From Thermoplasmata archaeon (GTDB lineage: Archaea; Thermoplasmatota; Thermoplasmata; Methanomassiliicoccales; Methanomethylophilaceae), in the NCBI GenBank assembly GCA_015063285.1, contig SUST01000005.1, positions 20,063 to 84,062 of the forward strand: a DNA stretch of 64,000 nucleotides. The letters are read 5' to 3'. The notes below the pieces were generated by a model. That model worked only from the letters and a program-made list of their open reading frames with translations. It was not told where the DNA came from and ran no database searches. Shown here one piece after another: positions 1-17,874 of this stretch; the first letter of the stretch is position 1, and every line of letters begins with the position of its first letter. The translations under genes were made by a program, and so were the position numbers.

Positions 1-1987
1 CCGGAGCTTTTCCGCTGCCACCGTCTATGTCGTAGTACACATAGTGTCCCTCTTTCCATTGGGCTACGAAAGTGATGTCTGATTCGCCCATTGTGATGGT
101 TTGGCCTTTCTCATAGACCTTTCCATCCCACAGCCATCCTTTGAAGAGATACCCCTCCCTGGTCCCGGTGTAGTCATAGACGGCGAACTCATACCCTTCA
201 AAGTAATATGTTGGAATGGGGACCGTGCCCTTACCTTCGGCCTGATCGTATGTGACCTTGTGTTCCTTGGTCTCTCCCTGTTCGGCAACCATGACGCGAT
301 TTGTATTTTCCTTTAATTTGAAAGTATGGCCCAGGAAATCAGCGCTGCTAAAGTCCGTGATCTTTGTTATCCCATCTGATTTGTAGAACTCATAGTCAGT
401 CTGGGGATAGGGGAATTGGAAGGCAGTGTTGGAAATGCCCTTACACTCTTTACTCACCGTCAACTTTTTCAGATCGAAATTAAACGCATCCCCTCCGATA
501 CTGCTTACATTGGATGACAGGATCAAGTAATCCACCACCGCTGTGCAATTTCTAAACGCAGAACCACCCACTGTCGTTATATTTATAGAAATCACGAGTT
601 CTCCCGCAGTCTGTGTACCTTTTCCATCATAAAACTTACAAGAGCTGAAAGCACTATCATTGATGGTTGTAACGGAATCAGAGATCACGTGCTTCACACT
701 TTTTCCATCCTTATATTCTCCATAGAAGGTGCTACACTGAAAAGCTGTACTGCTGATCGTTGTTACGCTGCAGGGTATGTACAGTACCCCGTGGAATATG
801 GCATATTTGTAGAGATTGCTTTGGATTCTTTTAGTGCTATCCGGTATTTCCAAACCGCCCTTGAATTCACTATGGGAAAAAGGCTCGGTCACACCTATTA
901 AATCGGCATTCACTGTCAGCTTATTGAATACACATTTCCCGAATGCGGAAGCGCCCATTCTTTGCACACCATTCGGTATCATAAGATCGGGCGGATTATC
1001 ATTGGCTTTATAACAATTGTAGAAAGCATGATTCTCTATCGTCTTCAAGGTTCCTGGTATCACTGGCGTTCCTGTGAAAGTAGATCCATTGAAAGCATGT
1101 TCGCCGATAAATTCGATGTGCCCTGGAAATTTGAATTCGCATAAGAAAGGGACGTTCTCGAATGCATGTTCGCCGATATACAACACTGAATCAGAAAGAG
1201 TGAGACTATTGAATTTGCAGCCGGTAAATGCATACGCTCCTATTTTTTCGAGAGAATAGGGCGTCTTGAGCGTTTCAGTAAAGCGACAGTTCTCGAACGC
1301 CCTGTCTTCGATGTTGATCAACTCCTCTGGAAGACTGAGGGTGCCGGTCAATCCACTGCATGCATTGAATGCATATTGACTGATTGTTGTGATATTCTGT
1401 GGGAAAGTAAGAGATCCGGTCAACGCGCTGCAATTGGCGAATGCATATGCTCCTATCGACTCAAGACTAGTGAGGTTTTGTAGTTGTAGATTACCCAGTT
1501 GTACGCAATCTTTGAACGCGTAATCTCCGATGGATTGTATTTGATCTGCTCCGCCGAACCCGATGGTTGTAACATTTTCGAGTCCGAAGAATGCATACGC
1601 TCCTATAGTGATCGCTCCAAGCCCGACAGTGATCTTAGTGATTTTTGATTTGTATGTGTCGCTCTTCCACGGAGCGGGGTTGTCAGCGGTGTAATCCGCC
1701 ATATATCCGTTGTCCCCATCTTCTTTAGTTATCTCTAAGAGGTAATCGTCCGTGGGCTCTGTTGTTTCTGTAATATCTTTGAGTTCCCAGTGGAGTCCTC
1801 CGCAGGTTCCTGACGGAAGGTCACCATCCGCATTGGTCTGTCCAGGGTATATCAGCGACGATGCTATCATCGCAAATATCGCCAGGATCGCAATCCCTGT
1901 CAGCATGCGCTTGTACTCAGCGGCCGTCCGGCCACCAGGTTTCCCAGCTGTTCTCCTTTTTGGGTGCGATAGGACTCTTTCATTCAT
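1..1987 (-). CDS. BspA-type leucine-rich-repeat (LRR_5) surface protein with Listeria-Bacteroides (InlB B) repeat; runs off left edge
   Basis: Not in the ORF track; translated by hand. ATG at 1987, open to the window edge. N-terminus MNERVLSHPKRRTAGKPGGRTAAEYKRMLTGIAILAIFAMIASSLIYPGQTNADG has a hydrophobic signal segment. Many I(G/S)xxAFxxC repeats (IGAYAFFG, IGDYAFKDC, IGEHAFEN, IENHAFYNC), then KVTYDQAEGKG...YLFKGWLWDGKVYEKGQTITMGESDITFVAQWK. Confidence 0.85.
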   Translation of the reverse strand, partial: MNERVLSHPKRRTAGKPGGRTAAEYKRMLTGIAILAIFAMIASSLIYPGQTNADGDLPSGTCGGLHWELKDITETTEPTDDYLLEITKEDGDNGYMADYTADNPAPWKSDTYKSKITKITVGLGAITIGAYAFFGLENVTTIGFGGADQIQSIGDYAFKDCVQLGNLQLQNLTSLESIGAYAFANCSALTGSLTFPQNITTISQYAFNACSGLTGTLSLPEELINIEDRAFENCRFTETLKTPYSLEKIGAYAFTGCKFNSLTLSDSVLYIGEHAFENVPFLCEFKFPGHIEFIGEHAFNGSTFTGTPVIPGTLKTIENHAFYNCYKANDNPPDLMIPNGVQRMGASAFGKCVFNKLTVNADLIGVTEPFSHSEFKGGLEIPDSTKRIQSNLYKYAIFHGVLYIPCSVTTISSTAFQCSTFYGEYKDGKSVKHVISDSVTTINDSAFSSCKFYDGKGTQTAGELVISINITTVGGSAFRNCTAVVDYLILSSNVSSIGGDAFNFDLKKLTVSKECKGISNTAFQFPYPQTDYEFYKSDGITKITDFSSADFLGHTFKLKENTNRVMVAEQGETKEHKVTYDQAEGKGTVPIPTYYFEGYEFAVYDYTGTREGYLFKGWLWDGKVYEKGQTITMGESDITFVAQWKEGHYVYYDIDGGSGKAP

Positions 1988-1998
1988 GTTTCAGCCCC

Positions 1999-3582
1999 TC
2001 AGAATCCCAATCCGTCCAGGAAGTAGTCCATATAGGTGTTCTTCTCGTATATGGTCCAGGTCTTTACGGACATACCGTTCAGTATCTCGATCTGGTTGCC
2101 CTTGTCATCGATCAGGGCCTGATCATCGAAGGATACTCTGATCTTGAAGAACGCACCCTCTTTGGTAATGGTGGCATCGTCCGCGATGGAGTGTATCTTT
2201 CCGTTAACGCATCCGAACTCGGTCTGCAGGAGCCCATCGACGGTGAATCTGCATTCCTGTCCGACTGCAAGCCTTACCCTGTCATGGGCGTTGACGACCA
2301 TCTCGATCTGCTTGTCCGAACCGCTGTTGATGTTACCGATGGCCGCTCCGGTCTGCACATAGGAACCAACTTCGATATCCAGGTCATAGTGGACCGTTCC
2401 GGTGTTCGCCGCCTTTATGGTATACTTCGCGATGTTCGCTTCAGCCGAAGCGATCTGCGCCTTGAGCTGGACAGTCTGGTCCTTGGCATTGCTGTTCTCG
2501 CTTCTAATCGATGAAAGATACTTCAGCTTCACATACTCCTGCTTGTTGTCCAGATTGTTCTGGTTGTATTCGGAGAGGTATTGATTGAACAGATCGTAGA
2601 ATTCGACTTCTACCGGCTCCGTGGAACTGCCTATGAAAGGATTGGAAGTGGTATCCCTATTGAGGGAGTTGATCATGGTATCGATCCTCTCAAGCCTGTC
2701 CTCCGCCTTTTCGCCCTGTTTTACGTATGAGTCGTATTGAATAAGCTCTTTTTCCAGATTGGCCTTCGTGTTGTACCAAGTATTGTAGAAGTCCTTAATG
2801 GTGCTCATTTTGTAATAGGTGCCGTATTCAGGGATAAAAGAAGCGTCAATACATAACTGATAGAAATCGGCATAGATTTCATAGAAGTCCTTCTCCGATG
2901 ACCTAACGAACGGATTGTTGCCCGGACCCGGTTCAGAGGCCGCGGCCAGAAGTCTGTTGATCTTGCTTATCTTTTCCACACTGGCATTGTATAGCTCCTG
3001 ATACATGAGTCCGCTTTTGATGTCCTTCTCTGCAGAGGTCTTCTGGGAATACAGATTGTTGAGATATTTCATGCGTACAGTTTCTTTCTGATCCGCATAT
3101 GTCGTCTGTTCGAGTTCGTTCTCGTACGACTTCATCATCTCATAGAACTCCCTCTCGTCTCCCATGTTGACGAATGGATTCGGTTTGTCGTTCTCGACCG
3201 CATCCATGAATTCGCTGATAAGGGACAGTCTGTTCTCATAGTGCTTCAGCGAATTCTCGTAATTCCTGCGTTCCGCCTCTGCGACGGAAGAATCCAGCAC
3301 GAAGAGGATGTCATCCTTTGCTACAAGATCTCCTTCTCTCGCATACACCTCTATTATGGTGCCTGCGACATCGTTGGTGATGGATTTCACTCCAGAATCG
3401 ACCACGATCCCGGAGTTCTCCACCTCTTCGGCCTTGACGGCCGTGCACGACCATACCGCGACCCCTATGAGGATCAGTACTATGATTAGTATGGTATAGT
3501 ACATGAACTTCGGGGGATTGCGCATGTAGAATAGGCGGCTGTCCTTCAGTCCCTGAAGCTTGTAATCCCCCAAAGTTGCCAT
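1999..3582 (-). CDS. HlyD-family membrane-fusion (adaptor) protein, elongated
   Basis: N-terminal TM, lipoyl half motifs (VAGTIIEVYAREGDLVAKDDILFVLD; IKAANTGTVH), coiled-coil centre, beta-barrel C-terminus (GQECRFTVDG...GKIHSIADDA...GMS). Confidence 0.85.
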   Translation of the reverse strand: MATLGDYKLQGLKDSRLFYMRNPPKFMYYTILIIVLILIGVAVWSCTAVKAEEVENSGIVVDSGVKSITNDVAGTIIEVYAREGDLVAKDDILFVLDSSVAEAERRNYENSLKHYENRLSLISEFMDAVENDKPNPFVNMGDEREFYEMMKSYENELEQTTYADQKETVRMKYLNNLYSQKTSAEKDIKSGLMYQELYNASVEKISKINRLLAAASEPGPGNNPFVRSSEKDFYEIYADFYQLCIDASFIPEYGTYYKMSTIKDFYNTWYNTKANLEKELIQYDSYVKQGEKAEDRLERIDTMINSLNRDTTSNPFIGSSTEPVEVEFYDLFNQYLSEYNQNNLDNKQEYVKLKYLSSIRSENSNAKDQTVQLKAQIASAEANIAKYTIKAANTGTVHYDLDIEVGSYVQTGAAIGNINSGSDKQIEMVVNAHDRVRLAVGQECRFTVDGLLQTEFGCVNGKIHSIADDATITKEGAFFKIRVSFDDQALIDDKGNQIEILNGMSVKTWTIYEKNTYMDYFLDGLGF

Positions 3583-4043
3583 CAGATTACCTCGTTGAAA
3601 ATATCGGCGACGAATTCCTTGCCTTCCTCGGCGGGGTTCAGAACAGTGTAGAACACCGATCCGAGGGTAAGGTCGTGCTCGAATGCATAGACCTGCATCT
3701 TAGAGTATGCCATGATCATTTTGTCAATAGGTCCGGTGTATCTTGCCATGAGGCATTTCTCGAGCCTGATCTTGGGTTCGAAACTGTAGGGGTTGGCAAC
3801 ATTCGCGGGCGCCTCCTTGAGTTGGATGAGCATTTCGGAGTCGTGGGTAGACTCCTTGCCCATGATCTTTGTCGTGTCACGGACGATAAGGGGTCCGTAG
3901 GGTTTCAGGTTCTCCTTCTTCAGATAGGACTCGAACATCTTGGCCGATTTCTGGATGGTATCCTCATCGATGCCTTCCAGTATCCTGGAGATGACGTTGT
4001 TGAATGTCACGTTCTTGTCTTCTGCGATTTTTATCTCATTCAT
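3582..4043 (-). CDS. GyrI-like / DUF5085-like small effector-binding protein
   Basis: 153 aa with GPLI...CLMARYTG...AYSKMQVYAFEHDL pattern typical of the GyrI-like fold; overlaps both neighbours. Confidence 0.55.
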   Translation of the reverse strand: MNEIKIAEDKNVTFNNVISRILEGIDEDTIQKSAKMFESYLKKENLKPYGPLIVRDTTKIMGKESTHDSEMLIQLKEAPANVANPYSFEPKIRLEKCLMARYTGPIDKMIMAYSKMQVYAFEHDLTLGSVFYTVLNPAEEGKEFVADIFNEVI

Positions 4044-6348
4044 ATGTTATTTCTCCTATTTCGTCTAAATCGTTTGTTTTCTTTTCTTCCGAAGTTATTT
4101 CAGCCTTATCCACGGAAGGATCTTCGTATCCTATCGTGGTCTCATCTCTCTCCATGATCCTGGTCTCTTCGGACTTCTTCTCTCCGACGTTGATCTCGCC
4201 GGTCTGTGTGGACCATAGTTCGTAATATGCGCCGCGGAGCGCCAGAAGTTCATCGTGCGTTCCAGATTCGACAACCTTTCCAGAATCCATCATGTAGATC
4301 CTGTCGCAGTTGCGGATGGTACTGAGCCTGTGGGCTATGATGAGCATCGGGCAGTCCGCCAGCTTTTTGAATATGAGGTCGAAGGTTGTCTTCTCCGTGA
4401 CGTAGTCCATGTTGCTGGTGGCTTCGTCCATTATGAGGAAGTCCGGGTTTCTGAGGATGGCCCTTGCCAGGATCAGCCTCTGTTTCTCTCCTCCCGACAG
4501 TCCTCCGCCTGTCTCATCGAGGAAGGTGTCGTATCCCGCTGGGAGTCTTTTTATGAATTCGGTACAGCCCGCGATTTCGCACGCCCTGTCCATCTCTTCC
4601 TTGCTGGAGTACCCTCCGAGAAGCAGGTTCTCACGCAGAGAACCGCTGAATGTCCTGATGTCCTGGGGGACGCATCCTATGCGTTTCCTCAGAGAGAACG
4701 AGTCTATCTCCTCGATGTTGCGTCCGTTGACCTTTACGGTACCGGACTGGGGGCTGTAGAACTTGAGTATGAGCTTGGACAGGGTAGTCTTGCCGCATCC
4801 TGACCTTCCGACAATCGCAATCTTCTCGCCTTTGCCGATATGGATGTTTACGCCTTCGAGCACTGGGGGCCTTGTTCCGTACCCAAATGTCACGTCGCAA
4901 ACCTCGATGTCCTCGATGGGGTCCTCAAGCAGGTCCTTTCCGTCCTCGATCTCGTTCTCTTCGTCGATGTCGTAGATCTCTGAGAGACGTTTCAGCGAGA
5001 TGTCCGCTTCCTGGATGCTCAGCTGCATCCCTATGAGCCTGCCTATGGGGTCGATGAAGTATCCCGCCAGTGATGTGAATGCCATGAGAGTACCGAGTGT
5101 GATGCTGCCCTGTATTGTGAGATATCCTCCGAAAAGGATCAATGCAAGATTGCCTATGTTCGTTATGGCTCCTGAAAGGGATGATTGGATGTTGTTCAGC
5201 ACCCCTCCGTCAAACTGTATGCGGAGTGACTTGATGAACTCGGTCTCGATCTTTTCCATTGAGTGTTCCTCGGAGACATTGGTTTTGATCGTTGCGACAT
5301 TGTTCAGTGATTCGATGATCTGGGAGTTGAGCCTCGCATTCTGTTCCATCGATTTCCTGTTCAGTTTTTTGTAAGGTGCCCTGAACGCGAACATCAGAAC
5401 ACTGCTCAGGATGGCCATTATCAGGACAATCCAGAACAGATCTATGGATTGGAAGGCCAGCACCACACCGACAATTATGACCATGGCGGCATCGATGACG
5501 ACCGTCAGAGCAGTGTTGGTTAGAATGTCTTTGACGGTTCCCGCGTCCTGGAATCTGGTGACGATGTCTCCAGTCCTTCTGGATTCGAAGAACCTGATAG
5601 GGAGTTTGAAAACGTGGTCGAAGTATCCCAGCATGAGAGGGATGTCGACCTTCTGCGAAAGGTAGAGGACCATGTGCGACCTAAATGCAGAAACGATGAT
5701 GTTCGTACAGACAATCGCAATCAGAACTATACCGAACAGCAGCAGTTGATTGTCCTCCTGGTAGGGGATGATCTCATCCACCAGAGTCTTGTTGAACATC
5801 GCTATCAGGATACCGAAGATAGTGATCAGGACGGACATGATGATGGCCATGATGAAAAGACCTTTGTGTGCCCTCATCATCTTGGAGAATGTGCCGAACA
5901 GCGTTCTGCTCTTCTCCCTGGTCTTTATGAATTCTTCCTTCGGGACCATCATTATGAGTCCGCCGTCGAAGTCCTCATTGAACTCATCCAATGTTTTCTT
6001 GACGACTTTACCCGTGTCCGGATCCATGTAGAAGACTCTGTTCCTCTTTATGCTGTAAACTGCCACATAGTGGGCGGTTCCGTCCTCACGCACCAGTCTG
6101 GCGATGGCAGGGAGTGTGAAGTCGTCATGGGCAAAAGAATCCGAACTGATGTAGATGGGTCTGGAATCGAACCCAAGGGATTGCAGCCCTTTGTTGAGTC
6201 CATCGATCGTGGTTCCGTAAGCATCGGTACCCATGATGTCTCTCAGTTGGGCGATTGTGACATACTTGCCGTAGTATGAGCATATGCTTACTACGCAAGC
6301 AACTCCGCAATCGGAAGAATCATGCTGTTCGACGCACGGTATCTTCAA
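4036..6348 (-). CDS. Peptidase C39-containing ABC transporter (PCAT)
   Basis: QHDSSDCGVAC (catalytic Cys), AHYVAVY (His), DPD (Asp); TM domain; Walker A GRSGCGKTT, LSGGEKQR signature, Walker B LIMDE, H-loop IAHRLST. Confidence 0.95.
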   Translation of the reverse strand: MKIPCVEQHDSSDCGVACVVSICSYYGKYVTIAQLRDIMGTDAYGTTIDGLNKGLQSLGFDSRPIYISSDSFAHDDFTLPAIARLVREDGTAHYVAVYSIKRNRVFYMDPDTGKVVKKTLDEFNEDFDGGLIMMVPKEEFIKTREKSRTLFGTFSKMMRAHKGLFIMAIIMSVLITIFGILIAMFNKTLVDEIIPYQEDNQLLLFGIVLIAIVCTNIIVSAFRSHMVLYLSQKVDIPLMLGYFDHVFKLPIRFFESRRTGDIVTRFQDAGTVKDILTNTALTVVIDAAMVIIVGVVLAFQSIDLFWIVLIMAILSSVLMFAFRAPYKKLNRKSMEQNARLNSQIIESLNNVATIKTNVSEEHSMEKIETEFIKSLRIQFDGGVLNNIQSSLSGAITNIGNLALILFGGYLTIQGSITLGTLMAFTSLAGYFIDPIGRLIGMQLSIQEADISLKRLSEIYDIDEENEIEDGKDLLEDPIEDIEVCDVTFGYGTRPPVLEGVNIHIGKGEKIAIVGRSGCGKTTLSKLILKFYSPQSGTVKVNGRNIEEIDSFSLRKRIGCVPQDIRTFSGSLRENLLLGGYSSKEEMDRACEIAGCTEFIKRLPAGYDTFLDETGGGLSGGEKQRLILARAILRNPDFLIMDEATSNMDYVTEKTTFDLIFKKLADCPMLIIAHRLSTIRNCDRIYMMDSGKVVESGTHDELLALRGAYYELWSTQTGEINVGEKKSEETRIMERDETTIGYEDPSVDKAEITSEEKKTNDLDEIGEITYE

Positions 6349-6549
6349 ACAAACCCCTCACTAAATCGAATCACGTTTAGGGGCGTTGTTTTATTTAAAT
6401 AAAGTTAATCTTTAATCAGCATTTGAATAAACCAGGCAATATCTGGTCAGGCTTCTATGCAATCCTGCCCATTCAATGCATTATTTCGATCTTTCCTGAT
6501 AAAATAGGTAGAAATGACAATCGATTTTGTAAGTAAAAAATCAGAAATG

Positions 6550-6654
6550 CGGGTGGCCTCACCTCCGAAGGAGGGTGGAGATGAGGCCTTCACCGATCTG
6601 TCCCGACAAGGCAAGTTGTGGTAGTAGGGCCAGTTCAATGACGCGGCACACCCG
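6550..6654. ncRNA. Candidate structured intergenic RNA (unassigned)
   Basis: Closing helix CGGGTG (6550-6555)/CACCCG (6649-6654); GGCCTCA (6555-6561)/TGAGGCC (6582-6588); hairpin CCTCC-GAA-GGAGG; GC-rich island inside AT-rich intergenic DNA. Confidence 0.3.
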
Positions 6655-6790
6655 TTCTTTTTAATGGAATCATATGCCGTTAATACTATTAGGACTACTC
6701 CATTAAAAAAGGTAACGTAAAAATTTGTTTGTTAAGTATTACTTTTTGCTCGAAAAAGTATGTTCATTCGAACTATTTTGGGAAAAGGAG

Positions 6791-6814
6791 CCCTCCCCGT
6801 TTGAAAGGGGAAGG
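6791..6814 (-). terminator. Hairpin downstream of mtaB
   Basis: ccctcccc/ggggaagg imperfect stem just past the mtaB stop, followed by a pyrimidine run on the minus strand. Confidence 0.4.
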
Positions 6815-6838
6815 TAAGTGGTTTTAGTGAGCTACGAC

Positions 6839-8242
6839 TCAGAGGTCGTAGTTCTTGAGGTTGAAGTTGGGGACGATGTCCTTGAACTCTTTGGTTGCCC
6901 ACTCTACGAACTTGTCGGTGTCGTCGGGGAGGGCTGTGAGCTTCTTGTGGATGTCCTGGAGGGTCTCGAGCTGCTTGACAGTGAGTGCGAGTTCCTTGGA
7001 CTCGTATCCTTTGAGGAGGATCTCTGCTGCCTTGACTCCGGCTGCCTTGGACCTGAGGTACAGGTCGTTTCCGTTCTCGGCGATGGCCTGTCCGATCTCG
7101 TATGCGTGGTCGTAGGCGAGGATGTATGCCTCGGGTCCTCTGTATCTGTCAGCGTACATGTACAGGTCCCTGAGGGTCTTCTCCTGCTTGAGCTGGATGG
7201 CGGTGTTCATCAAAGCTGCCTCGTATCCGATGGATCCGAACCAGCACTGGACGGAGGTTCCTCCGAACTCGGGGTGATACTCGACAGACTCGTTGGACCA
7301 GAGGTCACAGCACTGTGCAATGAGGTTACCCTGAAGATCGCAGTGTGCGCACTGGCAGTTCTTTCCCTCCTGGGTGGTGGGCTTTCCGGCGATTGCCTTG
7401 ACGATGGGTCCCTCGTAACCGCAGTCTTTGTCGGGTCCGAGTGCTCCGCATTCCCATGCGCAGAGAGTCCTTGCGGCTGAGATTGCACGGGTGACTGCAG
7501 AGAAGGTCCTCTGAACATCCTGGTCCATCATTCCGCCGGCCATGAACATGGAAACGTTCGCACCGGAACAGTTGGTGTCTCCGCCAGGTGTGCTGTGGTT
7601 CTTCTTACAGATGTCGACCATCTGTGACCAGCACCAGGTCATGTCGATGGATCCGAGGTAACCTACTCCGAAGAGGAAGGCGACGATGTCTCCGTTCGTG
7701 ACTGCGTAGTCTGCGAATTCCTTTCCACCGACAGACTCGACGGACAGGTTGTCGCATCCGTTCTCACATGCGATGTCGCAGCACTCGAAGAACTTCTCGG
7801 GGTATGCGTGGGCCTCGTCCATTCCGGGCCTGAGTCCGTGGTCGGCCTCACGCTGGTCGGGGATGGTCTGCCTGGTACCGCAGTTGAGTCCGTACTCCTC
7901 GTGGTACTTCTCACACATCTCTTCCTGTCCGGCAACGACGGGTGCGGACAGCTTTGCCTGGTTCATCTGGGAGACCCACTCGGTCTCAAGCTGTACGTTG
8001 GGGAATCCGACGGTGATTGCCCTGTCGAGGATATCCTTTGTGATGTAGTCGACGTACTCTTTTCTGAGTCTCTCGGGGTCCTTCTCGGTTCCGGGCCTGG
8101 GAGCGTAGTTGATCTCAGGAACGACGTATCCTGCACCGAGTTTGAGTCCGAATCCGTATGTAACGGGCTGTTTTGCGTGTCCGAATACCATGTCGTCTGC
8201 GCAGTCATATGCCATCTTTGTGTATCTTGTAACTGTTGCCAT
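6839..8242 (-). CDS. mtaB: Methanol:corrinoid methyltransferase MtaB
   Basis: Characteristic motifs GLKLGAGYVVPEINYAPRPG, ESVGGKE, GDTNCSGAN, GKDCGYEG-like, CAHCDLQGNL, DLWSNES; 467 aa; adjacent to corrinoid protein. Confidence 0.95.
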   Translation of the reverse strand: MATVTRYTKMAYDCADDMVFGHAKQPVTYGFGLKLGAGYVVPEINYAPRPGTEKDPERLRKEYVDYITKDILDRAITVGFPNVQLETEWVSQMNQAKLSAPVVAGQEEMCEKYHEEYGLNCGTRQTIPDQREADHGLRPGMDEAHAYPEKFFECCDIACENGCDNLSVESVGGKEFADYAVTNGDIVAFLFGVGYLGSIDMTWCWSQMVDICKKNHSTPGGDTNCSGANVSMFMAGGMMDQDVQRTFSAVTRAISAARTLCAWECGALGPDKDCGYEGPIVKAIAGKPTTQEGKNCQCAHCDLQGNLIAQCCDLWSNESVEYHPEFGGTSVQCWFGSIGYEAALMNTAIQLKQEKTLRDLYMYADRYRGPEAYILAYDHAYEIGQAIAENGNDLYLRSKAAGVKAAEILLKGYESKELALTVKQLETLQDIHKKLTALPDDTDKFVEWATKEFKDIVPNFNLKNYDL

Positions 8243-8243
8243 C

Positions 8244-9026
8244 TCACTGACCTCCTACGATGCTGTCCCACTCTTCTCTGATTCTCTTCCAGTCGTATCC
8301 CTGCCTGATCTTCTCTGCGATCAAGGGGGTCTGGGGTGCCTTCTCGGAGTAGATTCCTAGGTCGTAAGAGTTGGCGTACTCCCTGTTGACTGCTCCACCG
8401 CATCCCATCAGGGGGATGTTGATTCCCTTCTCCATGAGCATCTTTGCCTCTGTGGGGAATGCGGACATGGTGGTGGTCATGAGTGCTGTTCCGCTGGCGA
8501 AGAGGGGCTTGACCTCCTCTACCTTTGCAACGAAGTCGACGATAGGTACGTCACGTCCCATATCGATGACATCGTATCCTGAGGACCTGACCATCACTGC
8601 TGCGATGTTCTTACCGATGTCGTGGGGGTCTCCCTCTGCCGCGTGCATGACGACGGATCCCTTGGACTCACGTCCTCCGGGGACCTGCTTCTCTGCGATT
8701 GCGATTCCGATCTCCATGGTCTTTGCGGCCATCATGATCTCGGGGAGGAAGTAGACGTGCTCTGCGTACAGTTTTGCGACGCATTCCATTCCAGCGACGA
8801 GTCCGTTGTTGATGATGTCGAGAGGCTCCCTTACCTTCAGAGCCTCCATTACAGTAGGTCCTACTGTCTTGAATTTCATATGAAGAACTTCTTCTGCTAC
8901 CTTTCTGAAAACCTCATCTGTAGGTAACATCTTCTCTGCCATTTCCTCAGGCGTCAATGTGACCTGCATGTCCACATCGTAACGTTTGAGGACTTTTGTG
9001 AAATCCGCTCCTTCCTTGCTTAGCAT
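8244..9026 (-). CDS. mtaC: Methanol corrinoid protein MtaC
   Basis: B12-binding motif AEGDPHDIGKNI (DxHxxG), SGTALMTTT, GGAV; cap domain; operon with mtaB. Confidence 0.92.
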   Translation of the reverse strand: MLSKEGADFTKVLKRYDVDMQVTLTPEEMAEKMLPTDEVFRKVAEEVLHMKFKTVGPTVMEALKVREPLDIINNGLVAGMECVAKLYAEHVYFLPEIMMAAKTMEIGIAIAEKQVPGGRESKGSVVMHAAEGDPHDIGKNIAAVMVRSSGYDVIDMGRDVPIVDFVAKVEEVKPLFASGTALMTTTMSAFPTEAKMLMEKGINIPLMGCGGAVNREYANSYDLGIYSEKAPQTPLIAEKIRQGYDWKRIREEWDSIVGGQ

Positions 9027-9296
9027 TTTACCACCTTTGTTAGGTTGGATGTATCAAAGCAAGGGTACTTTATAACCCGTTTCAAAATCGAATCTGTGAA
9101 AGCAGATTATAACATTTATAAAGGTTTGGTTAAAACATCCTGGATGATACATTCATCCACCCCCAAAAAATATTGATTTAGTCATCAAACTGCTGGCTTG
9201 CAAAACAACAGGGGTTTAAGCCAAATCTTAACACATGATAAGACCTATGTATAATTGGAAACATATATGTATAATACAATTATTATACAAATCATA

Positions 9297-10808
9297 ATGT
9301 CTTCCATTGTTTACCTTCGGAATTTGAAGACCAATACTATATATGCATATCTCAACGAATCAGTGTGGGATCCTGAAAAGAAGAAGTGTGTAAACAAGAG
9401 AAAGTGCATCGGCCACCTGGATCCTGAAACGGGAGAGATAGTCCCTAACAGGAAGGTAAGGACAAGGGAGTACCCCAGGGTCAAAGGTCATTTCATCTGC
9501 GACATGTTCGACAATATTTCGAAGAACATCAGCCTGTCCGAGACGTTATCTTTGTGTTTCCCTGATAATTGGAAGAAGATAATGTCTGTCGCATATTATC
9601 TCGCTGCGGAAGGGGGCGAACTCCAGTTTTGTAAGCAATGGTCGATAAACAACAAGACGCCCTACAATCAGCCTCTGACACCCAACGTGATCAACGAACT
9701 GCTTGGGAGCATCTCGTCCAACGGGATCTCCCTGTTCTTCACATTATGGAGGCTACGCATACAGCCTGACGAAACATATGTGACTTCTATCGATTTCACC
9801 GAGACAAACTATAACATATCAGATTATATCAGAACCCAGAACATAGAACTGGGAAATCTGAGCAACAGGATGAAGATGGAAATATACTTCGCTACTAAGG
9901 GTAACACGCCCTTATGTTATCAATTATCAAATATGGCGACCGGGCGCAAATTCGGGGATTACGATGTCAGCCCTGCCAGTTTCACGAAGCTATCTTCATT
10001 CCTGGATGAGGAGTTGGGCGAACCGATCGATCCTTCCTTGATTGCGTATGCAAAGAGCAACCTCATCGTCCGTACCCGTCCAGACAATGAATTCGTCAGT
10101 GAGATCATCGAGAAGGCCGAGCCCACGATGACCAACCCTGAGAATTACAGGACCCTGTTCGGTACCCCACTATTCATCGAGACATTCATGCATCATGTGA
10201 ATGGGAAGAAGTTCTATGTCCATGTCTTCTTCGATCCGAACAAGGCTGTCGGCGATCTGTCCACATTCATCTCCATAGTCAACATGTGCAAATACGAATT
10301 GGAGACGGGGAGGGAGAATGAAATCCACAAGGATCTGTATGAACGCTATCTCATTGTGGACGAAGAGAACGGGAAGACAGTCGTGGAGCATAACAGTGAG
10401 GCCATCCTCCATCATAACAAGTTCCTTGGTTATTCGGCCATCATTTCAAATTTCACTAGGAATCCGTCGACTGCGATGGTCCCATTCATCCAGAGAAGGA
10501 CCATCACCAACATGTTCGAGAACATGTACAATGAGTACGATACCTCATCGTTGAACCTGTTCAGCGAAGTGAATCATCTGAGCCGTATCTTCATCCAGTT
10601 TATCGCACTGATCCTGAGGATGGCATCCGAGAACATCATGAACGATAAGAAGCTGAACAAGACGCTGACCTACAAGGAGCTGATTGCTGAGCTGAGGTCG
10701 ATCAAGACGGTAAACGTCCCGAAATTGAAGAAACCTCTGCAGACCGAACTGAGTGACACTCAGTTCCGTATCCTGAATGCATTCAACATCGATTATGATG
10801 TGGAGTGA
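9297..10808 (+). CDS. IS1634/IS4-like transposase-derived protein, catalytic motifs degenerate
   Basis: N-terminus YAYLNESVWDPEKKKCVNKRKCIGHLDPETGEIVP and C-terminus RIFIQFIALIL...LQTELSDTQFRILNAF match IS1634-type transposases; DDE motif positions eroded. Start placed at ATG 9297 (the track begins at TTG 9255). Confidence 0.7.
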   Translation: MSSIVYLRNLKTNTIYAYLNESVWDPEKKKCVNKRKCIGHLDPETGEIVPNRKVRTREYPRVKGHFICDMFDNISKNISLSETLSLCFPDNWKKIMSVAYYLAAEGGELQFCKQWSINNKTPYNQPLTPNVINELLGSISSNGISLFFTLWRLRIQPDETYVTSIDFTETNYNISDYIRTQNIELGNLSNRMKMEIYFATKGNTPLCYQLSNMATGRKFGDYDVSPASFTKLSSFLDEELGEPIDPSLIAYAKSNLIVRTRPDNEFVSEIIEKAEPTMTNPENYRTLFGTPLFIETFMHHVNGKKFYVHVFFDPNKAVGDLSTFISIVNMCKYELETGRENEIHKDLYERYLIVDEENGKTVVEHNSEAILHHNKFLGYSAIISNFTRNPSTAMVPFIQRRTITNMFENMYNEYDTSSLNLFSEVNHLSRIFIQFIALILRMASENIMNDKKLNKTLTYKELIAELRSIKTVNVPKLKKPLQTELSDTQFRILNAFNIDYDVE

Positions 10809-11039
10809 TCAGCAGTATGTGGTTTTGTCGCTGTCGAGGACCTCGTTCCAGAGCCTGATGGTCTCTTGAGCATCTTCTTCATCCATTATCTGGATGGCGA
10901 ATCCTGCATGGATGACGGCCCACATGCCCACTTCGGCCTCGACCATGGATACGTTGGCCTTCCTGGTGACGCCGCCGAAATCGACGTCCGCCATATCGTT
11001 CTCGATCTTCACAATCTTACCGGGAATTGCTAGACACAT
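10809..11039 (-). CDS. hypC: Hydrogenase maturation chaperone HypC
   Basis: MCLAIPGK signature, VIHAGFAI. Confidence 0.95.
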   Translation of the reverse strand: MCLAIPGKIVKIENDMADVDFGGVTRKANVSMVEAEVGMWAVIHAGFAIQIMDEEDAQETIRLWNEVLDSDKTTYC

Positions 11040-11043
11040 GGTA

Positions 11044-11415
11044 TCACTCTGTCATGATCTTGAGGATCGCCTCTGCAGGCTGTCCGTCAGTGGCTGTGAG
11101 GGCCTCGATGGCCTTCTCCCTGTCGCATCCTGTCTGACTCATGACAAGGTCCACATCGGACGAGGCAAAATCGACTGTAGGTGCGGATTCCTCCTGACCG
11201 CCCGAACTGAGGGGTCTGACGGTTTCGGGGCCTGAGATCTGATAGCTCTTGGAGCCTCCCATCTCGACGCAGACGACATCAGCACCCTTGAGGACAATCT
11301 CGTTGGTCTTTGTCCTGATGACAACTTCGACAACATCGTTGATGCTGTTCTGCTTGATGCCCATCTGCTTCATGGCCTTCTGCATCTGGCGAGGGTTGAT
11401 CTTCATTCCGCCCAT
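11044..11415 (-). CDS. nac: Nascent polypeptide-associated complex protein
   Basis: NPRQMQKAMKQMG, SYQISG, C-terminal UBA-like DVDLVMSQTG...AEAILKI. Confidence 0.92.
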   Translation of the reverse strand: MGGMKINPRQMQKAMKQMGIKQNSINDVVEVVIRTKTNEIVLKGADVVCVEMGGSKSYQISGPETVRPLSSGGQEESAPTVDFASSDVDLVMSQTGCDREKAIEALTATDGQPAEAILKIMTE

Positions 11416-11445
11416 ATTACTCCCTCATTGAGTCCTATTTTATAT

Positions 11446-12624: not shown

Positions 12625-12731
12625 CGTATCTGTCCGGACGAACAGGTCCGAGTAATAAAAATAAGTCGTTTGGAAAAAGTTTTCTGTGTCCCCTGCATAG
12701 AGACACAGGATCGCCTCCCGGCGTATCGGGG

Positions 12732-13973: not shown

Positions 13974-14905
13974 GATTTCGCCTCCATTGCCGTTGCTCTC
14001 TTCTCATCCCTTATGTAGAAGTCGGGACCTCCGTTGGGTAGCATTCCATGTTCGCGCAGCGTTCTGGAGACATTCCTTATGAGGTCGCTGACCACGTCGT
14101 CATAGTAGTGGACGTCGTCCAGATATGCCTGAAGTTTTGTCCTCACTCCGTCCTGGTCGAATTCCATGAACTGGACGTTCGGTTTGGGCAGACTTCCGTC
14201 GATCACGATATGGTCCACGCCGTATGCGGAGGACTTCAATAGTTCATAGAGTTCGTCAAGGTCCATGCTTTCGACTTTGAAGTGCATGATGAGGTCTATG
14301 CAGTAGCTCTTGGCATCAGCCGTCATGTTGCGGACCACGGATTGTGCGACCACATCGTTCGGCATGATGACGATCTCCGCGTTCTCCATGCTCATGAATG
14401 TGGTCGTCATCATACCTATCGACTGAACGATCAGCCTGGTATCGCTGTCGCGTAGACGGACTACATCGCCGGTCTTTAGACTGCGCGTGAGCATGATGCC
14501 GAATCCGCTGAAGAACTGCTGCAGAGTGGACTGGGCACCGAATGAGATTGCTAATCCCACGATTCCCAAACTGGTGACGATGACCATCAGATTGACTCCG
14601 AAGTTGTCCATGATAACGTAGGTAAATGACAGGATGATCACCAGATTCATCATGACCGATAGGATCGGGTACACAGACGATTTGGACCCGTCCGTTGTGG
14701 AGTCGTCTATCCAACCAAGGACCCTGATCAGGACCAGTCTGGCGACCAGCAGGACGATGAAACAGAAAATCACCATCATTATTGTGTACACGATGTAGTT
14801 GAATATCGTGATGCTGTAGGGGGACATACCTAGAATGCGTGCGCATTCGGCCAGCCCCAATATCAGGATGAGGACGAAAATTGCCCTTCCTGTATCGAAC
14901 TTCAT
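13970..14905 (-). CDS. mscS: Small-conductance mechanosensitive channel MscS family
   Basis: SLGIVGLAISFGAQSTLQQFFSG TM3 motif, GDVVRL, IVIMPN. Confidence 0.9.
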   Translation of the reverse strand: MKFDTGRAIFVLILILGLAECARILGMSPYSITIFNYIVYTIMMVIFCFIVLLVARLVLIRVLGWIDDSTTDGSKSSVYPILSVMMNLVIILSFTYVIMDNFGVNLMVIVTSLGIVGLAISFGAQSTLQQFFSGFGIMLTRSLKTGDVVRLRDSDTRLIVQSIGMMTTTFMSMENAEIVIMPNDVVAQSVVRNMTADAKSYCIDLIMHFKVESMDLDELYELLKSSAYGVDHIVIDGSLPKPNVQFMEFDQDGVRTKLQAYLDDVHYYDDVVSDLIRNVSRTLREHGMLPNGGPDFYIRDEKRATAMEAKS

Positions 14906-17866: not shown

Positions 17867-17874
17867 GAAACATT

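What the first reader, a model, noticed from the sequence alone, without database searches (positions are those of the whole stretch)
1..6348. Type I secretion-like operon (PCAT + GyrI-like + HlyD adaptor + LRR adhesin) in an archaeon
Seen in sequence: four tightly coupled genes (8-bp overlap, 1-bp TGATG overlap, 11-bp gap). The C39 catalytic Cys/His/Asp are intact. No small double-glycine bacteriocin precursor and no TolC are present; the only co-operonic candidate cargo is a large BspA-LRR/InlB-repeat protein. Established knowledge: PCAT-HlyD pairs export bacteriocins or proteins in bacteria, and Methanomassiliicoccus luminyensis is reported to have a double-membrane-like envelope. Inference: a horizontally acquired, dedicated export route for a host-interaction adhesin.
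Basis: partly seen in the sequence, partly recalled or inferred. Interest (0 to 1): 0.72.

Follow-up and report, generated by a model that had tools for sequence, protein, structure and literature searches.

The report
Bacteriocin-like peptide export locus in methanogen
A gut methanogen carries and transcribes a Clostridium-type gene set for cutting and exporting small glycine-rich, probably membrane-damaging peptides, so the neighbouring adhesin gene is a bystander or helper, not the exported cargo.

Summary
The four tightly coupled minus-strand genes are real. They are a PCAT with intact Q8/C14/H93/D109, a GyrI-fold DUF5085-like protein, an LcnD/HlyD-type adaptor, and an LRR_5/Flg_new surface protein cut by the window edge.

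The window truncates the locus. On 100%-identical public contigs, four tandem genes follow the LRR gene, 1.1-2.4 kb beyond window position 1. They encode 92-104-aa peptides with a double-glycine leader and a Gly/Ala-rich hydrophobic core.

The order PCAT, DUF5085-like, adaptor is kept in every locus long enough to show it (17 of the 18 found: Methanomethylophilaceae, Methanoplasma, Methanocorpusculum, many Clostridium species) and on Clostridium and Bacillus plasmids. Most also carry GG-leader genes.

The LRR gene occurs only in Methanomethylophilaceae, at variable positions. It has a Sec-type signal peptide and a C-terminal membrane anchor.

Characterised DUF5085 proteins (TipE, ExiAB) are cytoplasmic neutralisers of glycine-zipper type VII toxins. 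A sister family here is wired to a PCAT, which suggests a pre-export holdase or immunity role (inferred).

The machinery is under purifying selection and is transcribed in faecal metatranscriptomes, with the peptide genes deepest. This is a new variant of a known kind.

The parts
4036..6348 (-). Peptidase-containing ABC transporter (PCAT), 770 aa from a TTG start: C39 protease domain (res 3-138), six-TM ABC_membrane domain (165-434), nucleotide-binding domain (497-645), acidic about 55-aa C-terminal tail
   Evidence: Pfam C39 100.7, ABC_membrane 153 and ABC_tran 116 bits. NCBIfam TIGR01193 'peptide cleavage/export ABC transporter' scores 591 bits against a cutoff of 524, while TIGR01846 HlyB type scores 443 against 725. 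Full-length alignment to PCAT1 4RY2, with Q8/C14/H93/D109 on the columns taken to be the catalytic ones. The TTG start is supported by ATG starts at the same position in L015 and L016. dN/dS is 0.06-0.11.
3582..4043 (-). DUF5085-like, GyrI-fold soluble protein of 153 aa: proposed cytoplasmic neutraliser or holdase for the glycine-rich peptides before export
   Evidence: The only Pfam hit is PF16895 DUF5085, at 28 bits against a cutoff of 30, covering profile positions 2-130 of 141. The AlphaFold2 model has pLDDT 90.5 and a duplicated strand-helix-strand-strand layout. Foldseek finds GyrI-like proteins at E 6e-6 to 1e-3. The gene always sits between the PCAT and the adaptor in the loci that show the junction. 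dN/dS is 0.10-0.14. The role is inferred from TipE and ExiAB (PMC10434224, PMC12744356).
1999..3582 (-). HlyD/LcnD-family membrane-fusion (accessory) protein of 527 aa: N-terminal TM helix (about 25-47), lipoyl-like beta domain, about 287-residue helical domain with three NPF-tipped modules, C-terminal beta-barrel
   Evidence: Pfam HlyD_3, HlyD_D23 and Biotin_lipoyl_2. The best NCBIfam hit is TIGR01000 'bacteriocin secretion accessory protein' at 111 bits, below its cutoff. Precomputed hits LcnD_C and Beta-barrel_AprE. The AlphaFold2 model has pLDDT 82. Foldseek finds EmrA, MacA, AcrA, HlyD and Spr0693. The long form carries about 170 extra residues compared with the 350-375-aa forms elsewhere.
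1..1987 (-). First 662 codons of a 973-aa surface protein (BspA-type LRR_5 repeats plus five Flg_new/List-Bact repeats). It has a Sec-type signal peptide and, beyond the window, a C-terminal TM anchor. It is co-transcribed with the adaptor but is not the PCAT cargo.
   Evidence: LRR_5 205 bits. Full length from L001: LRR_5 202 bits, Flg_new 117 bits in 5 stretches. The N-terminus reads ...KRMLTGIAILAIFAMIASSLIYPGQTNA|DGD and the C-terminus ...FLIPIAVAAGAVAALMIGISIVRRP. There is no leader-HMM hit. One RNA contig spans window 1337-4226, across the 11-bp gap. dN/dS is 0.56.
6354..6404 (-). Candidate promoter and ribosome-binding region of the operon: TATA-like CTTTATTTAAATAA (6404-6391) and GAGGGG (6359-6354), 5 nt before the TTG start at 6348
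   Evidence: Read from the sequence. Metatranscriptome contigs end at 6354 (X4) and 6349 (X5). No RNA covers 6385-6688, although mtaB just upstream is 5-10 times deeper. The promoter assignment is inferred, not mapped.

Best explanation
Window 1-6348 holds the processing, export and self-protection half of a four-part peptide-secretion module of clostridial type. The module now resides in a gut or rumen Methanomethylophilaceae archaeon.

The substrates are four paralogous precursors of 92-104 aa. They are encoded just beyond the window's left edge (L001 14705-15984). Each has a 26-27-residue double-glycine leader (...MPTNYVDMSxxEMEFDGG) followed by a 66-78-residue Gly/Ala-rich hydrophobic core rich in glycine-zipper-like motifs, beginning WSWK.

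Proposed sequence of events:
1. The precursors are made in the cytoplasm, probably from their own promoter and at a higher level than the machinery.
2. The DUF5085-like GyrI-fold protein binds their hydrophobic glycine-rich part. This keeps them soluble and harmless to the producer's own membrane.
3. The C39 domain of the PCAT recognises the leader and cuts after GG, and the ABC core exports the mature peptide.
4. The LcnD/HlyD-type adaptor, anchored by one TM helix, assists as in Gram-positive class II bacteriocin systems. No outer-membrane partner is needed because this family has a single membrane.
5. Outside the cell, the peptides insert into and depolarise or permeabilise the membranes of competitors, most plausibly bacteria.

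The LRR/Flg_new protein is exported separately by Sec and anchored by its C-terminal helix.

Shown: gene content, order, catalytic residues, folds, leader conservation, synteny, purifying selection and transcription.
Inferred: binding by the DUF5085-like protein, cleavage and export, toxicity and target.
For: 1. Cargo genes exist. Four tandem GG-leader genes, each with an AGGAGG-like ribosome-binding site, lie on contigs 100% identical to the window.
2. Conserved module. PCAT, DUF5085-like gene and adaptor lie in that order in 17 of the 18 loci from the species-representative genomes (L029 begins after the PCAT) and on two plasmids. A leader HMM finds (L/M)x(L/M)PxxYV(D/E)xxxxEMEY(V)DGG proteins next to the module in 12 of the 14 bacterial loci (13 counting L018 at E 0.13) and 2 of the 5 archaeal GTDB loci, plus L001-L003, L005 and L009.
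3. Canonical leader. The clostridial leaders place hydrophobic residues at -4/-7/-12/-15 and Glu at -8 (read).
4. The PCAT is a full, catalytically intact member of TIGR01193.
5. The middle gene has a GyrI-like fold, and DUF5085 is its only Pfam match. Characterised DUF5085 proteins TipE and ExiAB are soluble cytoplasmic proteins that neutralise glycine-zipper membrane toxins before T7SS export.
6. The mature peptides are 29-47% Gly+Ala. Three of the four have GxxxG motifs (up to 5), and all four have 9-19 [GAS]xxx[GAS] motifs.
7. Selection. dN/dS is 0.06-0.26 for the three machinery genes, but 0.24-0.87 for the peptides and 0.56 for LRR.
8. Expression. Two faecal metatranscriptomes carry contigs over the whole operon. 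The peptide-gene contigs are 3-4 times deeper than the transporter contigs, while a DNA run is flat.
9. A single-membrane envelope is reported for the family's type species.
Against: - No experiment. Toxicity, cleavage and DUF5085-like binding are all inferred.
- The DUF5085 match is below Pfam's threshold (28 against 30 bits), and only 20 of 117 family representatives hit it at E<=1e-3. The family is a sister of DUF5085, not a member.
- The archaeal leaders are one residue shorter than the canonical pattern, with hydrophobics at -4/-6/-11/-14.
- The peptides hit no bacteriocin model.
- No membrane immunity gene is seen in the archaeal locus, unlike the C. tertium locus.
- The Methanocorpusculum locus and one Methanomethylophilaceae locus have no GG-leader gene beside the module.
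- The RNA evidence comes from assembled contigs of unstranded-looking metatranscriptomes, which may contain DNA.
- Adjacency of an LRR gene in every Methanomethylophilaceae locus is not explained by this model.
Confidence: 0.72

Rival explanations
1. One reading: the PCAT-adaptor pair is a dedicated export route for the co-operonic LRR adhesin.
For: An 11-bp gap separates the adaptor and LRR genes, and they are co-transcribed. An LRR gene lies next to the module in all Methanomethylophilaceae loci examined. No other LRR paralogue lies in the remaining 62 kb of the window. A 'GG' occurs at residues 18-19 of the LRR protein.
Against: The LRR protein has a Sec-type signal peptide and a C-terminal TM anchor in all paralogues. 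It gives no match to the leader HMM. The early GG is not conserved in the L014 paralogues. The LRR gene is absent from the Methanoplasma, Methanocorpusculum and all bacterial loci, and is upstream of the PCAT in L015. Genuine GG-leader substrates are present. From my own knowledge, a 973-aa repeat protein is far larger than known PCAT substrates.
Confidence: 0.04
2. The GG-leader peptides are exported as described, but they are not toxins. They would be signalling pheromones or self-assembling surface or membrane proteins.
For: PCATs also export pheromones such as ComC and Rtg peptides (PMC7018657, listed). No membrane immunity gene lies in the archaeal locus. An earlier survey of archaeal C39/GG islands left 'bacteriocin-like toxin or quorum-sensing' open (PMC6393860).
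Against: No sensor kinase or regulator lies in the locus. Mature parts of 66-78 very hydrophobic residues are unlike short soluble pheromones. The features match conflict systems: multiple diverging paralogues, high dN/dS, displaced cassettes each followed by a small multi-TM ORF in C. tertium, and a partner family (DUF5085) known only as a toxin neutraliser.
Confidence: 0.13
3. The DUF5085-like protein is not a peptide neutraliser. It would be a small-molecule-binding GyrI-like sensor or drug-sequestering protein, or a purely structural accessory of the transporter.
For: The closest solved structures bind small molecules: BmrR, CTR107, CtaZ and the albicidin-resistance protein. The Pfam DUF5085 score is sub-threshold. 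A recent study places the TelE glycine-rich region on a membrane subunit rather than on TipE (bioRxiv 10.64898/2026.03.12.711312).
Against: The gene has a fixed position, with overlapping coding ends, between the PCAT and the adaptor across two domains of life. It has no DNA-binding domain. It co-occurs with hydrophobic glycine-rich GG-leader proteins. DUF5085 is the only Pfam family that recurs in its relatives.
Confidence: 0.2
4. The locus is a decaying relic of horizontal transfer with no present function in the archaeon.
For: Distribution among archaea is patchy. L009 shows fragmented genes. GC is somewhat lower (0.46-0.50) than in much of the window.
Against: Reading frames are intact in several lineages down to 73% DUF5085-like identity. 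Purifying selection is strong. Catalytic residues are intact. The locus is transcribed in vivo.
Confidence: 0.03

Closest known systems
Gram-positive class II (especially two-peptide IIb) bacteriocin loci with a PCAT and an LcnD/ComB-type accessory protein (LcnC/LcnD, ComA/ComB; PCAT1-CtA of Clostridium thermocellum)
   Same: A C39-ABC exporter that aligns over its full length with PCAT1 and ComA. A single-TM HlyD-family accessory protein whose best NCBIfam hit is 'bacteriocin secretion accessory protein'. Several tandem GG-leader precursors with Gly/Ala-rich hydrophobic mature parts. No outer-membrane component.
   Different: The host is an archaeon. A DUF5085-like cytoplasmic protein is a fixed third component. 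The mature parts are long (66-78 aa in archaea, about 80-110 aa in Clostridium). The archaeal leader is one residue shorter than the canonical spacing. The peptides match no bacteriocin model. No membrane immunity gene lies in the archaeal locus.
T7SSb glycine-zipper LXG toxins with DUF5085 cytoplasmic immunity proteins: TelE-TipE (S. gallolyticus) and EsxX-ExiA/ExiB (S. aureus)
   Same: A soluble GyrI-fold protein of about 150 aa is encoded beside a glycine-zipper-type membrane-active polypeptide that must be kept harmless before export.
   Different: The export machine is a PCAT rather than EssC/T7SSb. The toxin is a small GG-leader peptide, not the C-terminal domain of a roughly 500-aa LXG protein. 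There is one DUF5085-like gene rather than a heterodimeric pair. The sequence falls just outside Pfam PF16895.
Caulobacter crescentus Cdz contact-dependent inhibition system (CdzAB type I exporter, CdzC/CdzD glycine-zipper proteins, CdzI immunity; PMC5380434)
   Same: An ABC exporter plus a HlyD-family adaptor secretes small (84-86 aa) glycine-zipper bacteriocin-like proteins encoded in the same cluster.
   Different: Cdz works in a diderm, and its proteins stay on the outer membrane. It has a three-TM immunity protein and no DUF5085-like gene. Its signal region is described as resembling the signals of secreted RTX proteins, not a GG leader. Sequence relationship to Cdz was not tested here.
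Classical type I secretion (HlyB-HlyD-TolC)
   Same: An ABC exporter with an N-terminal C39-type domain and a membrane-fusion protein of the same fold.
   Different: The HlyB-type and HlyD-type NCBIfam models are far below their cutoffs (443 against 725; 108 against 209 bits). The C39 domain here is catalytically intact. There is no TolC, and the family's type species has a single membrane. The cargo carries N-terminal GG leaders rather than C-terminal signals.
Archaeal C39-peptidase / double-glycine-leader islands predicted by comparative genomics (Makarova, Wolf and Koonin 2019, PMC6393860, Fig. 2E)
   Same: An archaeal locus with a C39 peptidase and several duplicated GG-leader proteins, read as a bacteriocin-like toxin or quorum-sensing system.
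   Different: That report is a general example without experiments. I could not establish the organism or whether the family is the same. No DUF5085-like component, clostridial relatives or methanogen host are mentioned in the passages read.

Membership tests
PCAT (peptide cleavage/export ABC transporter, NCBIfam TIGR01193) | N-terminal C39 cysteine-protease domain with oxyanion Gln and catalytic Cys/His/Asp | tested here: met
   Pfam Peptidase_C39 100.7 bits. Q8/C14/H93/D109 align with the PCAT1 4RY2 columns that I equate from memory with Q15/C21/H99/D115, assuming a 3-residue tag offset. This requires the TTG start, which ATG-starting orthologues support.
PCAT (peptide cleavage/export ABC transporter, NCBIfam TIGR01193) | Type-1 exporter transmembrane domain plus nucleotide-binding domain, and a whole-protein score above the curated cutoff | tested here: met
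   ABC_membrane 153 bits and ABC_tran 116 bits. TIGR01193 scores 591.4 bits against a cutoff of 523.85.
PCAT (peptide cleavage/export ABC transporter, NCBIfam TIGR01193) | Cognate double-glycine-leader substrates encoded nearby | tested here: met
   Four such genes lie on the identical contig L001 at 14705-15984, outside the window. The same leader family lies next to the module in 12 of the 14 bacterial loci (13 with L018 at E 0.13) and in 2 of the 5 archaeal GTDB loci.
PCAT (peptide cleavage/export ABC transporter, NCBIfam TIGR01193) | Leader cleavage coupled to ATP-driven export | not testable with these tools
   Needs biochemistry or genetics.
Classical type I secretion system (HlyB/HlyD/TolC) | HlyB-type ABC protein and HlyD-type adaptor above the family cutoffs | tested here: not met
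   TIGR01846 scores 443 bits against a cutoff of 725.55. TIGR01843 scores 108 bits against 208.65.
Classical type I secretion system (HlyB/HlyD/TolC) | Outer-membrane channel (TolC-like) and a diderm envelope | tested here: not met
   No such gene lies in the locus or its flanks on L001. M. alvi, the type species of the family, has one membrane and no wall (PMC10673518). The rest of the genome was not searched.
Double-glycine-leader (class II bacteriocin-type) precursors | N-terminal leader of about 15-30 residues ending in GG (or GA/GS) | tested here: met
   The leaders are 26-27 residues and end in DGG. Some orthologues end in DGS.
Double-glycine-leader (class II bacteriocin-type) precursors | Hydrophobic residues at -4, -7, -12 and -15, and Glu at -8 | tested here: inconclusive
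   The clostridial relatives fit exactly (V-4, M-7, E-8, I-12, Y-15). All archaeal leaders lack one residue, giving F/Y-4, M/I-6, M/L-11 and Y-14 (read).
Double-glycine-leader (class II bacteriocin-type) precursors | Match to a curated bacteriocin model (e.g. Pfam PF10439 Bacteriocin_IIc) | tested here: not met
   The four peptides and six relatives give no significant Pfam or NCBIfam hit. One of the 120 listed relatives carries PF10439.
Double-glycine-leader (class II bacteriocin-type) precursors | Antimicrobial activity and a dedicated immunity gene | not testable with these tools
   Activity is untested. No small TM ORF lies in the archaeal locus. Candidate multi-TM ORFs follow each GG-protein gene in C. 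tertium.
DUF5085 (Pfam PF16895; TipE, ExiA/ExiB) | Score above the Pfam gathering threshold | tested here: not met
   The score is 28.0 bits against 30. Clostridial relatives score 19.6-20.4 bits or nothing. Of 117 representatives of the family, 20 hit PF16895 at E<=1e-3, the best at 8e-8.
DUF5085 (Pfam PF16895; TipE, ExiA/ExiB) | Soluble protein of about 150 aa with a GyrI-like duplicated SHS2 fold | tested here: met
   The AlphaFold2 model has pLDDT 90.5 and a beta-alpha-beta-beta layout twice over. Foldseek finds the BmrR C-domain, CTR107, SbmC/GyrI and SOUL. No hydrophobic segment is visible in the sequence.
DUF5085 (Pfam PF16895; TipE, ExiA/ExiB) | Encoded beside a glycine-zipper membrane toxin, which it binds and neutralises in the cytoplasm | tested here: inconclusive
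   Co-location with Gly/Ala-rich GG-leader proteins is met in most loci.
DUF5085 (Pfam PF16895; TipE, ExiA/ExiB) | Type VIIb secretion / LXG context | tested here: not met
   Pfam found only a PCAT and a HlyD-family adaptor as export genes in the window locus, and the same two genes flank it in all related loci. The other ORFs of those loci were not scanned for EssC or LXG.
Membrane-fusion (periplasmic adaptor) protein family | Lipoyl-like, alpha-helical hairpin and beta-barrel domains, anchored by one N-terminal TM helix | tested here: met
   Pfam HlyD_3, HlyD_D23 and Biotin_lipoyl_2. AlphaFold2 secondary structure. Foldseek finds EmrA, MacA, AcrA, HlyD and Spr0693 at E down to 5e-14.

The most novel reading that the evidence does not exclude
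Wall-less gut methanogens use a bacterially derived weapon against bacteria. The PCAT exports very hydrophobic glycine-zipper peptides that stay associated with the cell surface, as CdzC/D do. The co-transcribed, always-adjacent LRR/Flg_new fibrillar adhesin brings target cells into contact, making an adhesin-assisted, contact-dependent killing system in an archaeon. The producer needs no membrane immunity protein because its ether-lipid membrane, or the lack of a bacterial receptor, makes it insensitive. Independently of the adhesin, the DUF5085-like family would be a general 'pre-export neutraliser' shared by two unrelated secretion routes (T7SSb and PCAT).
Probability: 0.15. Interest if true: 0.85.

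Novelty: new variant of a known kind. Interest (0 to 1): 0.6.

Why it matters
Evidence that archaea attack bacteria is still scarce. A 2025 study calls it 'scant' (PMC12352652, abstract). Here a host-associated methanogen lineage carries a complete, selected and expressed peptide-toxin-type export module shared with Clostridia. That gives a concrete, testable candidate for how methanogens compete in the gut and rumen.

For bacteria, it defines a widespread but unannotated four-gene module. There are at least 414 peptide clusters and 307 DUF5085-like representatives, all labelled 'hypothetical'. The module links the newly characterised DUF5085 immunity fold to PCAT-dependent bacteriocins.

It also shows how a window edge and a mis-called start codon can hide the real nature of a locus. 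Metagenome gene calls begin at an internal ATG and so delete the catalytic cysteine.

Tried and rejected
- Exact look-up of the 770-aa PCAT found nothing. Public gene calls start at an internal ATG (732-734 aa) or elsewhere. The adaptor protein was used instead.
- The 63-aa ORF with an internal 'FGG' in the 490-bp gap upstream of the PCAT (window 6447-6638) was considered as a precursor. It was rejected: no leader-HMM hit and no RNA cover.
- 'GKPGG' at residues 15-19 of the LRR protein was considered as a cryptic GG site. It was rejected: no leader match, and it is not conserved in the L014 paralogues.
- Pfam and NCBIfam scans of the peptides gave nothing significant.
- PDB sequence searches with the DUF5085-like profiles gave only a marginal hit to a GyrI-like effector-binding protein (E 0.7) and no TipE/ExiAB entry.
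The related MAG locus L013 was used at 88% likeness instead.
- No GG-leader gene was found beside the module in L015 or L017. L014 and L019 end too early to tell.
- Literature searches found no paper linking DUF5085 to ABC exporters, no bacteriocin report for Methanomassiliicoccales, and no occurrence of the leader string.
- The bacterial sigma-70 promoter and terminator scan was not used, because the host is an archaeon.

Full report
**1. What is in the window**

Four co-directional minus-strand ORFs fill the region.
- 4036-6348: 770 aa from a TTG start.
- 3582-4043: 153 aa.
- 1999-3582: 527 aa.
- 1-1987: 662 codons that run off the window.

Pfam assigns Peptidase_C39 + ABC_membrane + ABC_tran to the first. 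It assigns HlyD_3, HlyD_D23 and Biotin_lipoyl_2 to the third, and LRR_5 + Flg_new to the fourth. The second has one sub-threshold hit, DUF5085, at 28 bits against a cutoff of 30.

NCBIfam places the first protein in TIGR01193, 'peptide cleavage/export ABC transporter' (591 bits, cutoff 524). It does not reach the HlyB-type type I model (443 bits, cutoff 725). The best hit for the third protein is 'bacteriocin secretion accessory protein', below cutoff.

The PCAT aligns end to end with PCAT1 (4RY2). Q8, C14, H93 and D109 lie on the columns that I equate with the oxyanion Gln and catalytic Cys/His/Asp of PCAT1. That equation uses native numbering recalled from memory and an assumed 3-residue tag offset in the PDB chain.

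This depends on the TTG start. A GAGGGG motif 5 nt upstream supports it, as do orthologues that begin with ATG at the same residue. Metagenome gene callers used an internal ATG (732-734 aa), which would remove the catalytic Cys.

The flanking genes are mtaB/mtaC, NAC and hypC, and beyond the window isopentenyl-phosphate kinase and polyprenyl synthase. These mark a methyl-reducing methanogen.

**2. The window cuts the locus**

The 527-aa protein is found on public contigs. Window 1-13582 is 100% identical to two of them, L001 and L002.

On these contigs the LRR gene is 973 aa long. It has LRR_5 repeats, five Flg_new repeats, and the C-terminal anchor ...FLIPIAVAAGAVAALMIGISIVRRP.

After a 187-bp gap come four tandem genes of 97, 92, 95 and 104 aa.
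- Each has its own AGGAGG-like ribosome-binding site.
- Each starts with ...M(K/L)(M/L)PT(N/S)Y(V/L)(D/E)M(S/T)xx(E/D)(M/L)(E/Q)(F/Y)DGG followed by WSW(K/G).
- Each continues with 66-78 residues that are 29-47% Gly+Ala. Three of the four have GxxxG motifs (up to five), and all have 9-19 [GAS]xxx[GAS] motifs.

These are double-glycine-leader precursors with glycine-zipper-like hydrophobic cores. They lie 1.1-2.4 kb beyond window position 1. A leader HMM finds nothing in the window.

**3. The conserved unit**

I searched one genome per species with a profile of the 153-aa protein. This returned 18 loci:
- three Methanomethylophilaceae MAGs (73-84% identity);
- a Candidatus Methanoplasma MAG (41%);
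- a Methanocorpusculum MAG (39%);
- eleven Clostridium or Clostridia loci (33-35%);
- a Ruminococcus and a Facklamia locus.

In every locus long enough to show it, the order is PCAT, then the DUF5085-like gene, then the adaptor. L029 begins after the PCAT.

A leader HMM finds proteins beginning ...LQLPNSYVEIDRDEMEYVDGG directly after the adaptor in ten of the bacterial loci. The exceptions are:
- Facklamia L030, where they lie between the PCAT and the DUF5085-like gene;
- C. paridis L018, which has only a weak match (E 0.13);
- Ruminococcus L029, which has only a divergent match upstream (E 1e-4);
- L019, a 3.4-kb contig that ends too early to tell.

Archaeal-type leaders lie near the module in L005, L009, L013 and L016.

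The same four genes lie on a 38-kb Clostridium estertheticum plasmid from bovine faeces and on large Bacillus thuringiensis plasmids. RefSeq names the middle gene and the peptide gene 'hypothetical protein'.

The clostridial leader fits the canonical double-glycine pattern exactly: hydrophobic at -4, -7, -12 and -15, and Glu at -8. All archaeal leaders lack one residue between the GG-proximal and distal parts, giving -4, -6, -11 and -14.

A profile search for the peptide family finds at least 414 clusters. Every one that carries a name is called 'hypothetical', and one of the 120 listed carries Bacteriocin_IIc. A full HMMER scan for the 153-aa family finds 307 representatives.

**4. The LRR gene is not part of the conserved unit**

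It is present only in Methanomethylophilaceae. There is one copy after the adaptor in the window genome, L005 and L013. Two large paralogues follow the adaptor in L014. Two copies lie upstream of the PCAT in L015, and fragments lie upstream in L009. It is absent from the Methanoplasma, Methanocorpusculum and all bacterial loci.

All paralogues have a charged N-region, a hydrophobic stretch of about 20 residues, and a small-residue cleavage-type site. In the window protein this reads ...KRMLTGIAILAIFAMIASSLIYPGQTNA|DGD. All also have a C-terminal helix followed by RRP, RKS or RRR. None matches the leader HMM.

This is the anatomy of a Sec-exported, membrane-anchored surface protein. M. alvi is described as having Flg_new adhesin-like proteins that may form its surface fibrils (PMC10673518).

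One thing remains unexplained. An LRR gene neighbours the module in every Methanomethylophilaceae lineage seen, although the other 62 kb of the window contain no paralogue and M. alvi has only six such genes.

**5. The middle gene**

The AlphaFold2 model is confident (pLDDT 90.5) and shows two strand-helix-strand-strand units. Foldseek's best matches are GyrI-like proteins: CTR107, EcmrR and BmrR effector domains, CtaZ, SbmC/GyrI and SOUL.

Pfam's only recurrent match for the family is DUF5085. It hits 20 of 117 representatives at E<=1e-3, and two hit GyrI-like. Scores for the window protein and its clostridial relatives are below the threshold. I therefore call it DUF5085-like, a sister family.

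The literature on DUF5085 is recent and consistent.
- TipE of Streptococcus gallolyticus neutralises the glycine-zipper pore-forming LXG toxin TelE (PMC10434224).
- ExiA/ExiB of Staphylococcus aureus are soluble cytoplasmic GyrI-like proteins. They bind the glycine-zipper region of EsxX and prevent toxicity from inside the producer (PMC12744356).
- A 2026 preprint shows TipE within a soluble pre-secretion complex, but it questions which TelE segment TipE binds.

All twelve papers that mention DUF5085 appear to concern type VII secretion loci. I found none linking it to an ABC exporter.

By analogy, I propose that the window protein holds the Gly/Ala-rich peptides in the cytoplasm until the PCAT takes them. 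This step is inferred.

**6. The adaptor**

The model shows one N-terminal TM helix, a lipoyl-like domain, a helical region of about 287 residues, and a beta-barrel. It matches EmrA, MacA, AcrA, HlyD and the pneumococcal Spr0693.

The Methanomethylophilaceae form (527-530 aa) contains three modules, each tipped by an NPF...EFY motif, at about residues 135, 223 and 314. The Methanoplasma, Methanocorpusculum and clostridial forms (350-375 aa) have one such module. What the tripled helical domain does in a wall-less cell is unknown.

**7. Evolution**

In a neighbour-joining tree of full-length PCATs from these loci, the archaeal sequences form one clade (bootstrap 100). This clade stands next to the Clostridium clade (bootstrap 79), with Facklamia as root. 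Methanocorpusculum groups with Methanoplasma (bootstrap 69).

Several facts favour transfer from Bacillota into archaea and then between archaeal orders: the patchy archaeal distribution, plasmid carriage in Bacillota, and different insertion sites. The insertion sites seen are:
- beside mtaCB and a 5S rRNA gene in the window genome;
- beside glycolytic genes in L014;
- a transposase upstream in L007.

The direction is not proven, and the sampling was biased towards loci that contain the middle gene.

The machinery genes are under purifying selection, with dN/dS 0.06-0.26. The peptides (0.24-0.87) and the LRR gene (0.56) evolve faster.

Compared with L013, nucleotide identity jumps from 78-82% over PCAT and the DUF5085-like gene to 96-99% over the adaptor. 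The jump falls exactly at the gene boundary, which marks a recombination junction.

**8. Expression**

Two faecal metatranscriptomes hold contigs covering window 1 (X5) or 944 (X4) up to 6349 or 6354.
- There is nothing over 6385-6688.
- Depth over mtaB is 5-10 times higher.
- One RNA contig runs from the DUF5085-like gene through the adaptor into the LRR gene.

On the related locus L013, contigs over the peptide genes are 3-4 times deeper than those over the transporter genes. A DNA run from the same kind of sample is flat.

A TATA-like TTTATAAA lies in the gap before the first peptide gene, and another (CTTTATTTAAATAA) lies about 45 nt before the PCAT start.

These are assembled contigs, so depth is only a rough guide and DNA carry-over cannot be excluded. 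The empty intergenic region argues for RNA.

**9. Comparison with known systems**

The closest match in mechanism is the Gram-positive class II bacteriocin apparatus: PCAT, LcnD/ComB-type accessory protein and GG-leader peptides.

The closest match for the extra component is the T7SSb TelE-TipE and EsxX-ExiAB pairing.

The closest match for small glycine-zipper proteins exported by an ABC/HlyD pair is the Caulobacter Cdz system. Its proteins stay on the cell surface and kill by contact (PMC5380434).

The locus is not a classical HlyB/HlyD/TolC system.

C39 plus GG-leader islands in archaea were noted once as 'bacteriocin-like toxin or quorum-sensing' (PMC6393860). From memory, they also appear in a 2019 mBio survey of archaeal conflict systems by the same group. 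I did not check that paper.

I found no report of this four-gene module, of its DUF5085-like component outside T7SS, or of bacteriocin-type loci in Methanomassiliicoccales.

**10. Verdict**

The locus is best read as a horizontally shared, PCAT-dependent export system for glycine-zipper peptides, with a DUF5085-like cytoplasmic partner. It is active in gut methanogens.

It is a new variant of a known kind, of moderate to good interest. The untested link to the adjacent adhesin is the most novel possibility left open.

Noticed in passing
window 2083-6582 compared with L013: Nucleotide identity to the related MAG is 78-82% across PCAT and the DUF5085-like gene, then jumps to 96-99% across the adaptor gene. 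The jump falls exactly at the gene boundary (window about 3582), while the flanks are 85-99%. This marks a recombination junction inside the operon.
   Followed up: partly
window 1999-3582 (adaptor protein residues about 99-385): The Methanomethylophilaceae adaptor has a tripled helical module. NPF...EFY...KYL motifs lie at residues about 135, 223 and 314, and about 287 residues are helical in the AlphaFold2 model. All other hosts have a single module and 350-375 aa. The reason is unknown.
   Followed up: partly
window 6232-6348: Public metagenome gene calls start the PCAT at an internal ATG (732-734 aa). This removes the first 38 residues, including the catalytic Cys14. The TTG start at 6348 with GAGGGG upstream restores a complete C39 domain.
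   Followed up: yes
L001 16189-16310 (about 2.6 kb beyond window position 1): A lone 5S rRNA gene (Rfam 83.9 bits) lies between the last peptide gene and the isopentenyl-phosphate kinase gene. It forms the far border of the island.
   Followed up: partly
L022 (Clostridium tertium) 11700-18100: Five genes or gene fragments with the GG leader lie in a row. Two are preceded by fragments of the adaptor gene, and three are followed by a small multi-TM ORF. This looks like displaced toxin-immunity cassettes, as seen in polymorphic toxin loci.
   Followed up: partly
L031 (C. estertheticum plasmid pCF007-D) and L032 (B. thuringiensis plasmid pBTHD521-5): The same PCAT, DUF5085-like, adaptor and GG-leader-protein module is plasmid-borne in Bacillota. 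In one case it sits next to a Cry8-type toxin gene. RefSeq annotates the middle and peptide genes as hypothetical.
   Followed up: partly
window 6839-9026: The mtaB and mtaC genes (methanol:corrinoid methyltransferase and its corrinoid protein) are the most deeply covered part of the region in both faecal metatranscriptomes, 5-10 times the neighbouring operon.
   Followed up: no
window 9255-10808 (+): A 517-aa ORF between hypC and mtaC has no Pfam match and is conserved in L013. By eye its N-terminus resembles IS1634-type transposases, but nothing supports that here.
   Followed up: partly
L009 (metagenome contig, 64% identical DUF5085-like gene): This locus is fragmented. The PCAT is split into several ORFs, and there is a second DUF5085-like gene plus adaptor fragments. 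The GG-leader genes lie on the opposite strand about 2 kb away, between ilvD and rpsJ. This is either a decaying or rearranged copy or an error-rich assembly.
   Followed up: no
window 27185-27259 (-): This is the only Rfam match in the 64-kb window at gathering threshold: one tRNA gene.
   Followed up: no
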